NCBI GenBank assembly: GCA_000002445.1
Contig: CH464491.1
Location: 5,088,001-5,152,000 of the forward strand
Source of the DNA: Trypanosoma brucei
Taxonomy: Eukaryota
Length of the DNA stretch: 64,000 nucleotides
Direction: 5' to 3'
The position numbers were made by a program. Shown here in pieces: positions 43,301 through 46,300 of the stretch; positions within the stretch are counted from its first letter, which is position 1, and the number at the start of each line of letters is the position of its first letter.

Positions 43301-46300
43301 CATAAAAAATTATATTTGAATTTTAACAAGTTTTGAATTTCCATAAAAAAGCATACAGCTCTGTTTCTAAATCTAAAACATAAAAATATATGGTTCTTCG
43401 TGGAACTTTATCACTGCACATGGCTTGGCGCGATAATTTGGCCTATACACTGCAGAGTGTCTCTTCCTCACTATACCGTCCATCATATTCTTGTGTATGA
43501 AGATACCAATCTGAATGTTTATGTTTGAAACTTAGCATATTCCATCATCATTTACTTTTTATTCCTCCGTTTGCCTTAATAATATTCGTATTTACACACT
43601 CACAACAGTTTCCTATCTTAATAAGAATTATTATTACAATCACTATTATTACTATTACTGCTCTTATTATATATTCGTATACACACACTCACAACACTCT
43701 CCTATCATCATCATCATTACCATTTTTATTATTATTATTACTATCGTTATTATAGCTCTAACTAGTATCCATAAAATAATTCAAAATAAACTAAATTTAA
43801 AAATTAAAATATAACTAATTTTCTTACCCTATCGCCATACTTCTTTAAACCCATATGTCACTTTCAGCAAAAAATTTATATTTTAGAGTTTTTCAAAATT
43901 TCGCATTTTCATGAAAAAGTGTTAAAGTATTTAAAAATTTCGTTAATTTTATAAAACTGAGCAATAATTCTTAACATGCTACCGAACCGATAAAAGCAGC
44001 CATACTCAGGGCAAATCTCTTGTTTACTAGAAAACTACCATTTCGGCACATTTCTTTTTCGGGTTCGGGTTCACCCTCTTTAAACTTCCTCCATGCACAA
44101 TTTTGCTTCTCGCCTGTTTTGTCACTTTCACAATCAGGTTGATATTAGTGCCTTGCACACCCAGTTGAAGCCGCTGCTCCATGCAGCTCCATCTCCAGCT
44201 CCTGCTTTAGGTTTGCATTCCTGTGTTTTTGTGCCATAGTCGCAGTCAGCTTATTGTCATTCTTCTGCAGTTGTGTTTTTTAGTTTGCATTTATTTTGTT
44301 CCTTTACTGTTAGCTTGCCCCTTTGTTTTTGCAGTGTATTTTCGGAATTGGTGATTATGGGGACATTTATTAATATCTTTGGGGGCTGCCGCCGGATTTT
44401 TCGGGGCATGGCGTTGCGCTTGCATTGCCCTGCTGACACTGCAGTTAACTGCTCGCCGCCTCCTCTTTCTTTGGCTGTGTTGCTGTGCTGCACCACGACC
44501 GGTCCAGGCTGCTATGTCGACTGGCTTTATCTGCCGAACATCATATTCTGACGCTTCCAAGGTTAAGATTTTATCGTTAGCGCCTCTTGAAAAGTAAATC
44601 GTCTCGTGCAGCGAAGCTTCCGCGTGCCAGCGTAAAAAGAAAAGGCACGTGCAGCGCTATATTCCACGATCCAGCCCTTTTTTAAAAAAAATGTTTTAAA
44701 GCCGCGCACAGCATAAAATGAAGAGCTGAGCTTCGAAAAAGCAACAAGAGCGAAAATGTAAATTGCAGCTTAAAATAAAAGTAAAAAATAAAGCACGGAC
44801 GTCGGTGGTGTGAATAAGGGTTAGGGTTCGCGGCAAAAAAATAGCCGCTGCATCATTAAGAAAAAGGTATAAGTCGCCACGCATCACTGCTAATAAAAAT
44901 ATCAAAAGGAAAATTAAAACCATAACCCTAACCCTAACCACCTAACCCGAAACACCTTAACCCGAATCACCGCATTTGCCGCTCCGAACAAAAAGGGGCG
45001 CTGACAAAAAAAACGATGCCGGGTTGTAACAAAAAAAAATCAAAAACGAAAAAAATCTGAAAAATGTCGAAAACTAAAAAGCAAAAAAAAAAAAGAGAAT
45101 GTAAAAAAAATGTAAGCTAAAAACCGTTAAAAATTCAAAAAAAATGTAAAAAAAATGTAAAAAAATGTAAAAAAACAAAAACTCGGAAAATAGAAAAAAC
45201 TGAAAAAAAATTTAAAAGAAAAATCTAAACTGGGGCCCGAAGGAAATTAAAAGAAAGTTTAAAAAAGAAAGTGTGTGCTGTAAAATGTGGTAAAAAAAAT
45301 TAATTTTTCAAAAAAAAAGTGAGCAAAAAAAGGTCACGAAAAAAATTAAAATTAAAATTAAAAAAAGGTGCGTTTGCGGGAGGCGTGCGTGGGGGGGGGG
45401 GGAGGAGGGTTAGGGTCCGCACAATCAACAGCTGCTGCATCATTAAAAGAATTTAAAAAATGAATTAAAGAAAAAAGAAAAGAAAAAAAGTAACCCTAAT
45501 CCTAAGCCTAATCCTAAGCCTAATCCTACCTAACCCCATAACTAACCTAACTAACCTAACTACCCCCAATTCCTACTTATCCTCTCTACCACTTGCACAA
45601 AAAGTTAAAGTTAAAAATTCAACAGGAAAAGAAAAATTTTTTTTAGTTTCCAGAAAAACAATTTTTTACAGAATCAGATTTTTTTACAACCAACAAAAAA
45701 TTCTCGAATGAATTTTTAGGTGTTAAAATATATCAGAAGTTTTCAAGTAGCAAAAATTTTTAGCAAGGAAAACTTTAAAAAGAGGGGGAAATTTTGTTTA
45801 GAAAAGCAAGGCCGCAAATGCAGCAGAAGCCACGCCGAGGGCGAATTTCTTGTTTACTAGAAAACTACCATTTCTGCACTTTTCCTTTTCAGGCTCATCT
45901 GTTTCACCCTCCTTACCCTTTCTCCATGCACAATTTTGCTTGTCGCCTGTTTTGTCATTTTCACAAGCGGTTTTATCTTTGTGCCCTGTGCACCAAGCTG
46001 CAGTTGTTCCCCCCTCTTTTGTTGTGCCTTCTGTTCCTGCTGTTTCCGGTGTTGCCGATCCTGGTTTAGATTTGCATTCCCCCTTTCCATCTTTTTCTTC
46101 CCATTTGCAGTTAGCTTTGATGCAAGTCTGGTTTGTTGTGTGAGTGCTACAGTTGGTCGTCGTCTGCCCTATTGTATGCTGTTTTTGAGTTCCTCCTTTG
46201 ATTTTCTCAAGTGCAGCGGCCGTAGCTTTTGCCGAGTCTACAATAACAACTGCATCTTTCTTTAGTTTTTTGATCTGTTCTATTATCTGTAATCCGCGTT

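What the first reader, a model, noticed from the sequence alone, without database searches (positions are those of the whole stretch)
44815..45560. Head-to-head telomere-repeat inverted pairs (GGGTTAGGGTT…AACCCTAACCC) duplicated in tandem between a VSG 3' fragment and an intact VSG
Two units (about 44815-44960 and 45406-45560) each consist of GGGTTAGGGT(T/C)CGC, a roughly 90-bp spacer sharing GCTGCATCATTAA, and a CCCTAA-type tract. They are separated by a 440-bp poly-A-rich stretch with (AAAAATGTAAAA)n. Each unit's arms are exact reverse complements, so the units have hairpin/cruciform potential. The (TTAGGG)n(CCCTAA)n configuration is the signature of telomere-telomere fusion or of a healed internalised chromosome end. 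In VSG sense the degenerate TTAGG(G/C/T) tract lies immediately 3' of intact VSG 45798..47378, as at a real telomere. A G12 run abuts unit 2.
Basis: seen in the sequence. Interest (0 to 1): 0.7.

Follow-up and report, generated by a model that had tools for sequence, protein, structure and literature searches.

The report
Relic telomeric VSG flank inside array
The "head-to-head telomere repeats" are real, but they are two copies of a conserved trypanosome chromosome-end repeat that follows a coat-protein (VSG) gene of telomeric type now sitting inside a gene array, not a local telomere-to-telomere fusion or a hairpin-forming element.

Summary
The window is Trypanosoma brucei brucei TREU927, the 5.26-Mb chromosome, in a minus-strand VSG array. 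The sequence features are real and far above chance.

In VSG sense, intact VSG 45798..47378 is followed by these elements:
- its 3'UTR;
- a pyrimidine-rich flank;
- a degenerate TTAGGG-like tract, 235 nt past the stop;
- two tandem modules, each with a T-rich part carrying phased A/T tracts and a roughly 74-bp GC-rich block with consensus TTAATGATGCAGCGGC..TGCGGACCCTAACCCTCCTCCCCCCC.

The "inverted arm" is the ACCCTAACCC core of that block. The same layout recurs behind a second intact VSG in the window (60047-60270, with 8 perfect repeats). It also recurs behind unrelated VSGs on two T. equiperdum contigs. There, GC blocks also lie 400-600 bp from any TTAGGG tract, so the inverted core belongs to the repeat and is not a fusion junction made here.

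Only unit 1 has exact arms (12 nt, 95-nt loop). Unit 2 folds no better than shuffled sequence. TTAGGG-like repeats 3' of telomere-proximal VSGs are already described in the literature.

Best reading: an internalised telomere-type VSG cassette with its subtelomeric repeats, joined to the C-terminal stump of a resident VSG. This is ordinary subtelomere archaeology of low to moderate interest.

The parts
43919..44620 (-). Stump of a resident VSG: frameshifted C-terminal-domain fragment plus a degenerate 3'UTR 16-mer (43919-43934). It lies just upstream of the 70-bp repeats (43575-43744) of the next cassette.
   Evidence: 44008-44158 is 84% identical to the C-terminal domain of VSG 45798..47378. 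Only short broken ORFs are present. The 16-mer has 3 mismatches.
44775..44862 (-). GC-rich block, copy u1. In VSG sense it reads TTAATGATGCAGCGGC...GCGAACCCTAACCC.
   Evidence: Alignment A4 of 9 blocks. The 17-mer search hit at 44815-44831 with 3 mismatches. The exact 12-nt inverted repeat 44817-44828 / 44924-44935.
44918..44971 (-). Telomere-like tract of unit 1. It has two perfect CCCTAA repeats followed by degenerate CCTAACCCGAAACA-type repeats.
44972..45344 (-). AT-rich half of the module. It is A-rich on the + strand, with A-tracts phased at about 11 bp, which resembles intrinsically bent DNA.
   Evidence: 55% A. The periodicity peak is at 11.0 bp, with power 3.06 against a shuffle 95th percentile of 1.91. 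Tandem Repeats Finder gives periods of 10-11 bp. 45451-45025 aligns with the block plus T-rich region of T. equiperdum L001 3731-4154 at 63% over 454 bp; the E-value is inflated by low complexity.
45345..45450 (-). GC-rich block, copy u2. In VSG sense it reads TTAATGATGCAGCAGC..TGCGGACCCTAACCCTCCTCCCCCCCCCCCCACGCACGCCTCCCGC. It contains the G12 run (45391-45402) and the 'left arm' of unit 2 (45404-45420).
   Evidence: The 17-mer GCGGACCCTAACCCTCC is exact here and twice in T. equiperdum L003. It is 80-89% identical to L001 3325-3428 and 3734-3787. Alignment A4.
45489..45562 (-). TTAGGG-like degenerate tract immediately distal to the 3' flank of VSG 45798..47378. In VSG sense it reads TAGTTAGGTTAGTTAGG...GGTAGGATTAGGCTTAGGATTAGGCTTAGGATTAGGGTTAC.
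   Evidence: The same degenerate pattern occurs at the same place in T. equiperdum L003, and perfect repeats occur there behind VSG 60490..62010 (alignment A3). 45489-45562 is 87% identical to 60187-60260.
45563..45797 (-). 3'UTR of VSG 45798..47378 (exact 16-mer TGATATATTTTAACAC at 45720-45735) plus the pyrimidine-rich flank leading to the tract.
   Evidence: The flank is conserved with that of VSG 60490..62010 (73% over 295 bp) and with T. equiperdum flanks.
45798..47378 (-). Intact VSG, 526 aa, XP_829789.1 / EAN80677.1, T. b. brucei TREU927.
   Evidence: Pfam VSG_B plus Trypan_glycop_C.
47663..48692 (-). Upstream flank shared only with the other telomere-flanked VSG (62351-63379, 88% identical). 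It carries hexosyltransferase-like pseudo-ORFs Tb11.1840 and Tb11.1830.
49424..49510 (-). Single 70-bp-type repeat that marks the upstream edge of the cassette of VSG 45798..47378.
   Evidence: 83-87% identical to the other 70-bp repeats of the window.
59757..59990 (-). Second VSG C-terminal stump. It lies behind the third module copy and in the same orientation as VSG 60490..62010.
   Evidence: 59739-59926 is 76% identical to another VSG C-terminal region at 37793-37985.
59995..60095 (-). GC-rich block, copy u3, degenerate. GATGCAGCG is kept, and the core has decayed to GGGAGCTAAGC.
60164..60270 (-). Interstitial telomere tract behind intact VSG 60490..62010. It has 8 consecutive perfect CCCTAA repeats plus degenerate CTAACCTAA repeats on the VSG side.
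60490..62010 (-). Second intact VSG with a telomere-type 3' flank, 506 aa, XP_829791.1 / EAN80679.1.
   Evidence: It is 26% identical to VSG 45798..47378.

Best explanation
The region is the 3' flank of a VSG cassette of telomere-proximal type that now lies inside a subtelomeric VSG array.

In VSG sense the order is:
1. intact VSG;
2. 3'UTR;
3. pyrimidine-rich flank;
4. degenerate TTAGGG-like repeats grading into perfect TTAGGG;
5. one to three tandem copies of a subtelomeric module, period about 410-590 bp;
6. the C-terminal stump of another VSG, its 3'UTR, and the 70-bp repeat of the next cassette.

Each module is an AT-rich half with helically phased A/T tracts plus a roughly 74-bp GC-rich block, TTAATGATGCAGCGGC..TGCGGACCCTAACCCTCCTCCCCCCC..ACGCACCTCCCGC. 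The 'head-to-head inverted pair' is the TTAGGG-like tract lying next to the 9-11-nt ACCCTAACCC core that is built into every GC block. The 'tandem duplication' is simply the tandem nature of the module.

Shown here: the anatomy, its recurrence, and its conservation across loci and subspecies.

Inferred (origin): a telomeric VSG was copied or translocated into an array VSG together with its distal subtelomeric repeats. This would be gene conversion or break-induced replication starting in the 70-bp repeat or upstream flank, ending by template switch or microhomology joining inside the resident gene. The resident gene's N-terminal part was deleted and its C-terminal stump left behind.

Inferred (present role): probably none is required. 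Side effects could include weak TRF/RAP1 binding and expression-site-like 3' homology for recombination.
For: 1. The same architecture appears four times: behind VSG 45798..47378, behind VSG 60490..62010, and on T. equiperdum contigs L001 and L003. Those two contigs were fetched only because their VSG proteins were weak hits.
2. The 3' flanks align through the 16-mer, the pyrimidine-rich part and the degenerate tract. The idiosyncratic GGTAGGATTAGGCTTAGGATTAGGCTTAGG is included, and all four end in GGTTAGGGTTA(C/G) followed by T-rich DNA (A3).
3. Seven full and two partial GC blocks align to one consensus (A4). GCGGACCCTAACCCTCC is exact in the window and twice in L003. L001 blocks are 80-89% identical to 45348-45448.
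4. Blocks L001 3733-3800 and L003 4575-4666 lie more than 500 bp from the nearest G-strand tract. Tract-to-core spacing varies (73, 95, about 100, 156 and 190 nt). The core is therefore part of the block, not one arm of a junction.
5. The AT-rich half has an 11-bp A-tract periodicity above shuffles and aligns with the T. equiperdum inter-block DNA.
6. The VSG-to-tract distances of 235 and about 220 nt fall in the 200-1590 nt range measured at real expression-site telomeres (PMC2567434). TTAGGG-like repeats 3' of telomere-proximal VSGs are a published signature (PMC3708902).
7. The two telomere-flanked VSGs are both intact. They alone share a 1-kb upstream flank at 88% identity, although the proteins are only 26% identical. 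This fits a distinct cassette class.
8. From my memory of Weiden et al. 1991 (Mol Cell Biol 11:3823; not held), minichromosome ends carry the telomere repeat, a 29-bp telomere-derived repeat, then 74-bp G+C-rich repeats separated by about 155 bp of bent A+T-rich DNA. The block measured here, from GATGCAGCGGC to CGCACGCA, is 74 bp in L001. This is a lead, not a test.
Against: - I could not examine genuine chromosome ends (expression-site, metacyclic or minichromosome telomeres). It is therefore not shown that the GC/AT modules sit between a telomeric VSG and the terminal repeat array, nor in which orientation.
- Only four loci were available, two from this window and two from one other subspecies.
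- The junctions between the modules and the C-terminal stumps differ among loci (about 0-20, 250 and 400 bp of intervening DNA). The insertion mechanism is therefore inferred, not reconstructed.
- AT-rich low complexity inflates some alignment statistics.
- The identification with the Weiden 74-bp repeat rests on memory.
Confidence: 0.75

Rival explanations
1. Local telomere-telomere fusion or chromosome healing. Two chromosome ends fused head to head here, or a broken end was healed and internalised, and the junction was then duplicated in tandem.
For: G-strand and C-strand telomere motifs do face each other. There is an exact 12-nt inverted repeat in unit 1. The tract is oriented as at a real telomere relative to VSG 45798..47378.
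Against: - The left arm is only 9-12 nt. It is embedded in a conserved block that recurs elsewhere with the same flanks, also far from any TTAGGG tract.
- The 73-95-nt 'spacer' is conserved sequence, not junction filler.
- The flanking VSG sequences are co-directional.
- No NHEJ has been detected in T. brucei; repair is by homology or microhomology (PMC2377438).
Confidence: 0.06
2. Ancient fusion as the origin of the whole module family. A VSG-bearing telomere once fused head to head with a VSG-less, minichromosome-type end. The GC/AT subtelomeric repeats of that end carry a telomere-derived core pointing toward its own tip. The composite was later spread by duplication and gene conversion with different VSGs.
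For: - The core in every block is in C-strand orientation when read away from the VSG. That is what a second, opposing chromosome end would give.
- The order VSG, then degenerate repeats, then perfect repeats, then GC/AT modules mirrors the tip-to-interior order I recall from Weiden 1991.
- The G-rich context (GGGGGGGAGGAGGGTTAGGGT) looks like decayed G-strand.
Against: - Telomere-like scraps of both orientations occur inside the modules (44918-44971 in G-strand sense, L001 3553 in C-strand sense).
- The stump beyond the modules is a VSG pointing away from the supposed second tip.
- No orientation data from real ends were available.
- This scenario overlaps with, rather than excludes, the best explanation.
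Confidence: 0.15
3. Telomerase-RNA-templated insertion, like the TERC-flanked interstitial telomeric sequences of rodents. Telomerase ran past its template at a break and copied adjacent telomerase RNA sequence next to the repeats.
For: [quoted passage not shown] The phenomenon exists in vertebrates (PMC8537989, listed).
Against: - In TbTR the template (nt 339-349) is preceded by a stem-loop with apical loop UCUCGU at -29 to -24. The blocks have ATGATG or TGATGC there, and no TCTCGT occurs anywhere in the units.
- The non-telomeric part lies on the wrong side and strand for read-through cDNA.
- Rfam finds no RNA family.
Confidence: 0.02
4. Assembly chimera that joins a telomeric contig end to array sequence.
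For: The homopolymer G12 and telomere repeats are classic mis-join sites. T. equiperdum contig L003 actually breaks in the equivalent poly-C run.
Against: - The same VSG-tract-module-stump-70-bp order is contiguous, without Ns across the junctions, in an independent assembly of another subspecies (L001 3170-4950).
- It occurs twice in this window with diverged sequence.
Confidence: 0.02
5. A structure-forming element (cruciform or hairpin) or a small transposon bounded by telomere-like terminal inverted repeats.
For: Unit 1 folds better than shuffles as single-stranded DNA (z = -3.6).
Against: - Unit 2 does not fold better than shuffles (z = +1.2).
- Loops of 73-95 nt make cruciform extrusion in duplex DNA very unlikely (established knowledge).
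- Arm spacing varies from 73 to 190 nt among copies.
- There are no target-site duplications, and the right 'arm' is part of a longer tract.
Confidence: 0.02

Closest known systems
Conserved 3' flank of telomere-proximal VSG genes in T. brucei ('TTAGGG-like repeats 3' of telomere-proximal VSGs'; Aline & Stuart 1989, as cited in PMC3708902)
   Same: A VSG 3'UTR with the 16-mer is followed by a pyrimidine-rich stretch. Degenerate TTAGGG-like repeats in G-strand orientation then start about 220-235 nt after the stop. This is inside the 200-1590 nt range seen at expression-site telomeres (PMC2567434).
   Different: Here the flank is internal. After at most 8 perfect repeats it runs into GC/AT modules and then another VSG fragment and further array cassettes, not into a terminal repeat array.
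Minichromosome subtelomeric repeats: 74-bp G+C-rich direct repeats separated by about 155 bp of bent A+T-rich DNA, internal to a 29-bp telomere-derived repeat (Weiden et al. 1991; recalled from memory, paper not held)
   Same: GC-rich blocks of about 74 bp alternate with AT-rich DNA that has about 11-bp phased A-tracts, next to telomere-derived repeats.
   Different: The AT-rich parts here are 340-500 bp, not about 155 bp. No 177-bp repeats are nearby. No 29-bp periodicity was seen in the degenerate tract (periods of 6, 9, 12 and 14 bp were found). Sequence identity to the published repeat could not be checked.
Interstitial telomeric sequences from head-to-head chromosome fusion (for example human 2q13)
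   Same: Telomere motifs of both orientations face each other at an internal site.
   Different: One arm is only 9-12 nt and belongs to a conserved dispersed block. The arms are separated by 73-190 nt of conserved sequence. The flanks are co-directional. The configuration recurs at several loci.
VSG C-terminal gene fragments in T. brucei arrays (about 18% of array VSGs are fragments, mostly C-terminal; Berriman et al. 2005 and Marcello & Barry 2007, from memory)
   Same: C-terminal stumps with their own 3'UTR lie upstream of the next 70-bp repeat.
   Different: In all three cases seen here (two in the window, one in T. equiperdum L001) the stump directly follows a telomere-type flank. That suggests how such fragments can arise. 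I found no statement of this association in the papers available.

Membership tests
Telomere-proximal-type VSG 3' flank | VSG 3'UTR 16-mer followed by a pyrimidine-rich stretch and TTAGGG-like repeats in G-strand orientation within 200-1590 nt of the VSG | tested here: met
   The 16-mer is exact at 45720-45735 and at 60415-60430. The tracts start 235 and about 220 nt after the stops. The range comes from PMC2567434 and the signature from PMC3708902.
Telomere-proximal-type VSG 3' flank | Flank continues into the terminal TTAGGG array at a chromosome end | tested here: not met
   At most 8 perfect repeats are present, followed by modules, a VSG stump, 70-bp repeats and further VSGs. The locus is internal, so it is a relic and not a live telomere.
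Subtelomeric 74-bp GC-rich / AT-rich bent repeat (Weiden 1991) | GC-rich direct repeats of about 74 bp separated by AT-rich DNA with bent character, next to telomere-derived repeats | tested here: inconclusive
   Blocks of about 74 bp align to one consensus. The A-tract period is 11.0 bp, above shuffles. The AT-rich parts are longer (340-500 bp) than the roughly 155 bp I recall.
Subtelomeric 74-bp GC-rich / AT-rich bent repeat (Weiden 1991) | Sequence identity to the published minichromosome repeat | not testable with these tools
   The paper and its GenBank entries are not available.
Head-to-head telomere fusion junction | (TTAGGG)n abutting (CCCTAA)n, locus-specific, with inverted (convergent) subtelomeric flanks | tested here: not met
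   The arm is 9-12 nt and lies inside a recurrent conserved block. The conserved spacer is 73-190 nt. Blocks also occur without a facing tract. The VSG flanks are co-directional.
Telomerase-RNA-flanked interstitial telomeric sequence (TERC-ITS type) | Non-telomeric flank matches telomerase RNA sequence adjacent to the template | tested here: not met
   The published TbTR landmarks are the UCUCGU loop at -29 to -24 and G/C/U identities at nt 325-328 (PMC8643685). They do not match the blocks.
Cruciform- or hairpin-forming inverted repeat | Arms that pair significantly better than shuffled sequence, with a short loop, in every copy | tested here: not met
   Unit 1 gives z = -3.6 but with a 95-nt loop. 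Unit 2 gives z = +1.2.
Known structured RNA family | Match to an Rfam covariance model | tested here: not met
   No matches at E up to 1 in 43500-46000.

The most novel reading that the evidence does not exclude
Telomere-type 3' flanks inside arrays may be more than debris. They could mark intact VSGs that were recently archived from chromosome ends. By keeping expression-site-like downstream homology and TRF/RAP1-binding repeats, they could make those particular array genes preferred donors, activated earlier in the switching hierarchy. Each 'VSG, tract, module, C-terminal stump' junction would then record one telomere-capture event. Array growth and the origin of C-terminal VSG fragments would become readable from sequence.
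Probability: 0.15. Interest if true: 0.55.

Novelty: new member of a known kind. Interest (0 to 1): 0.27.

Why it matters
It removes a tempting but wrong reading, namely a telomere fusion scar with cruciform potential. It replaces that reading with a recurrent, conserved subtelomeric repeat whose GC block has a built-in inverted telomere core.

It also gives a concrete marker for spotting array VSGs of recent telomeric origin: the degenerate tract plus the block TTAATGATGCAGCGGC..GCGGACCCTAACCCTCC. In this window both such genes are intact, and each is followed by a VSG C-terminal stump. That hints at one route by which arrays gain functional genes and by which C-terminal fragments arise.

The value is for annotation and for evolutionary bookkeeping of VSG archives. 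No new mechanism is involved.

Tried and rejected
1. Telomerase-RNA read-through origin. Rejected because the TbTR landmarks next to the template do not match the blocks, and Rfam is empty.
2. Hairpin or cruciform. Rejected by folding.
3. Looking up the window's own VSGs and neighbouring ORFs in other assemblies by exact protein. Nothing is on record for TREU927.
4. Searching for orthologues of the two VSGs. Only the TREU927 entries and partial Lister 427 / EATRO1125 proteins without contigs were found.
6. T. equiperdum contigs L002 and L004 were uninformative. L002 has N gaps right after the VSG, and L004 has only 95 bp of downstream sequence.
7. A metagenome scan for the block 22-mer gave no hits.
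8. Literature. Ten full-text searches found no paper describing internal telomere tracts or this GC block in VSG arrays. Marcello & Barry 2007, Wickstead 2004 and Weiden 1991 are not held. I found only indirect statements: residual expression-site sequences in subtelomeres (PMC10686619) and TTAGGG-like repeats 3' of telomere-proximal VSGs.
9. The CCCTAACC at 28193, near VSG 28392..29744, is a single short match beside a degenerate retroelement. I did not count it as a module.
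Full report
**Source and setting**

The two intact VSG ORFs of the region are 100% identical to T. brucei brucei TREU927 proteins on a 5,261,801-bp record:
- 45798..47378, minus strand, 526 aa: XP_829789.1. I call this gene VSG-R in this report.
- 60490..62010, minus strand, 506 aa: XP_829791.1. I call this gene VSG3.

The window is a minus-strand VSG array. It has about a dozen VSG 3'UTR 16-mers, 70-bp-type repeats, an ingi-type RT/RNase H ORF and a degenerate retroelement.

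Yes, for almost every element.
- GGGTTAGGG occurs only twice in 64 kb, at 44818 and 45407.
- Matches to (TTAGGG)2 with up to 2 mismatches number 23 against 3.5 expected. None of 100 shuffles reaches that, and 19 of the 23 fall in three clusters.
- GCTGCATCATTAA is exact in both spacers.
- The two units are 66% identical over 167 bp.
- The stretch between them is 55% A with 10-11-bp repeats, and G12 lies at 45391-45402.
- The left neighbour is a frameshifted VSG C-terminal fragment.

One statement fails. Only unit 1 has exact arms (12 nt, 95 nt apart). Unit 2 shares just TTAGGGT exactly. Folded as single-stranded DNA, unit 1 scores z = -3.6 but unit 2 scores z = +1.2. With loops of 73-95 nt, a cruciform in duplex DNA is not credible.

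**What the units are**

Read in VSG sense, VSG-R is followed by these elements:
1. its 3'UTR, with an exact TGATATATTTTAACAC;
2. about 170 nt of pyrimidine-rich DNA;
3. a degenerate tract, TAGTTAGGTTAGTTAGG...GGTAGGATTAGGCTTAGGATTAGGCTTAGGATTAGGGTTAC;
4. T-rich DNA;
5. a GC-rich block, TTAATGATGCAGCAGC..TGCGGACCCTAACCCTCCTC12ACGCACGCCTCCCGC;
6. about 380 bp of T-rich DNA;
7. a second telomere-like tract and a second block;
8. about 200 bp later, the C-terminal stump.

The shared spacer motif is the start of the same block.

**Recurrence inside the window**

A third copy lies behind VSG3. In order it has the 3'UTR, the pyrimidine-rich flank, degenerate CTAACCTAA repeats, eight perfect repeats, an A/T-rich spacer, and GCTGCATCGCTAA in a decayed block. 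It then runs straight into another C-terminal VSG stump.

The segment from the tract to the 3'UTR is 73% identical between the two genes over 295 bp, and 87% in the tract.

**Recurrence in another subspecies**

Two T. equiperdum contigs were fetched only because their VSG proteins were distant hits to VSG-R. One protein is 27% identical; the other matches only the C-terminal domain. Both contigs show the same layout.
- L001, in order: VSG, 3'UTR, short TTAGGG tract, a partial block, two full blocks 411 bp apart within T-rich DNA, a VSG C-terminal stump, and 70-bp repeats. All of this is contiguous.
- L003, in order: VSG, 3'UTR, the very same degenerate GGTAGGATTAGGCTTAGGATTAGGCTTAGG pattern, five perfect repeats, a partial block, and two full blocks about 470 bp apart. 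The contig ends in the poly-C run of the last block.

Alignment A3 shows the 3' flanks are homologous from the 16-mer to the end of the tract. Alignment A4 shows seven full and two partial blocks fitting one consensus. The 17-mer GCGGACCCTAACCCTCC is exact in the window and twice in L003. L001 blocks are 80-89% identical to the window's block u2. Block plus T-rich half aligns over about 450 bp, although low complexity inflates that statistic.

**Consequence for the fusion idea**

- Blocks with the inverted core occur more than 500 bp from the nearest G-strand tract (L001 3733-3800, L003 4575-4666).
- The distance from tract to first core varies (73, 95, about 100, 156 and 190 nt).
- The intervening sequence is conserved.

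The core is therefore a built-in part of a repeat family, not one half of a junction formed here. The VSG sequences on the two sides are co-directional, whereas fusing two VSG-bearing ends would make them convergent. T. brucei repairs chromosomal breaks by homology or microhomology, with no NHEJ detected (PMC2377438). An assembly chimera is unlikely, because an independent assembly of another subspecies carries the same order without gaps across the junctions.

**What it resembles in the literature**

- Hall et al. [quoted passage not shown]
- Hertz-Fowler et al. 2008 measured 200-1590 nt between the VSG and the telomere repeats in expression-site clones (PMC2567434). The distances here are 235 and about 220 nt.
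- From memory, Weiden et al. 1991 described the following order on minichromosomes, from tip inward: the telomere repeat, a 29-bp telomere-derived repeat, and 74-bp G+C-rich repeats separated by about 155 bp of bent A+T-rich DNA. The paper is not held.
- The block here measures 74 bp in L001. The AT-rich half shows an 11.0-bp A-tract periodicity above shuffles. This match is a lead, not a test.

**Most likely history (inferred)**

A telomeric VSG, together with its distal flank and subtelomeric modules, was copied or translocated into an array. The event started in the upstream flank or 70-bp repeat. It ended inside a resident VSG by template switch or microhomology joining, so only that gene's C-terminal stump survives.

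Three observations support this:
- A stump follows the modules in all three loci where the sequence continues (two here, plus L001).
- Both telomere-flanked VSGs are intact. [quoted passage not shown] A hypergeometric calculation of my own gives p of about 0.04, which is only suggestive.
- The two genes alone share a 1-kb upstream flank at 88% identity, with hexosyltransferase-like pseudo-ORFs, although their proteins are 26% identical.

The module-to-stump junctions differ among loci. These are therefore separate events or have been reshaped since.

**What remains open**

I could not test whether the modules are a normal part of VSG telomeres in the orientation seen here. The alternative is that they descend from one ancient head-to-head fusion with a VSG-less end. 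No genuine chromosome end was retrievable.

**Other ideas tested**

A telomerase-RNA read-through origin, as in rodent TERC-flanked interstitial telomeric repeats, was considered because the block contains 10 of the 11 template nucleotides. The published TbTR landmarks 5' of the template do not match, and Rfam finds nothing. A terminal-inverted-repeat transposon reading fails for lack of target duplications and because of the variable arm spacing.

**Verdict**

The feature is real but ordinary for trypanosome subtelomeres. It is a relic telomere-type VSG flank plus conserved subtelomeric repeats, inside an array. It is useful as an annotation marker and as a clue to how arrays acquire intact genes and C-terminal fragments. 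It is not a new kind of element.

Noticed in passing
window 60047-60270 (with VSG 60490..62010 and stump 59757-59990): A third copy of the same module, not in the finding. It has eight consecutive perfect CCCTAA repeats, a decayed GC block (GCTGCATCGCTAA; core AGCTTAGCTCC), and a VSG C-terminal stump directly behind it.
   Followed up: yes
window 47663-48692 and 62351-63379: The two telomere-flanked VSGs alone share a 1-kb upstream flank at 88% identity. It contains paired pseudo-ORFs that UniRef names hexosyltransferase (Tb11.1840/1830 and Tb11.0740/0730). None of the other VSG cassettes in the window has it.
   Followed up: partly
window, all VSG ORFs (8117..9565, 45798..47378, 60490..62010 against the rest): Only three VSG ORFs keep both a signal peptide and a hydrophobic GPI-signal tail. 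Two of these are the telomere-flanked ones. The others end prematurely or are broken.
   Followed up: partly
window 44967-45392: The A-rich half of the module has A-tracts phased at 11.0 bp, with power above the 95th percentile of shuffles. This suggests intrinsically bent DNA.
   Followed up: partly
window 45391-45402 and 60474-60486; L003 4626-4666: Long G/C homopolymers are present. G12 lies in the GC block and G13 in the 3'UTR of VSG 60490..62010. The T. equiperdum contig L003 ends in more than 40 C at the equivalent block position. The run is therefore length-variable and breaks assemblies.
   Followed up: no
window 54860-58394 (+) and about 25700-28180 (+): There is an ingi-type retroelement ORF (RVT_1 plus RNase H, 846 aa). 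There is also a second, degenerate relative, 24-46% identical at protein level, with no long ORF. The latter ends about 10 nt from a lone CCCTAACC (28193) that lies about 100 nt 3' of the 16-mer of VSG 28392..29744.
   Followed up: partly
window 40193-40349: A perfect (ATT)52 microsatellite with 100% matches lies next to a 70-bp-type repeat (40145-40212). It is unusually long and pure compared with the other TAT/ATT runs in the window.
   Followed up: no
L001 3236-3260 and L003 3990-4015: In both T. equiperdum loci the first block after the telomere tract is partial. It has TTAATGATGCGACG or TTAGCAATGCAGCGGC and lacks the CCCTAACCC core. In the TREU927 loci the first block is full.
   Followed up: no
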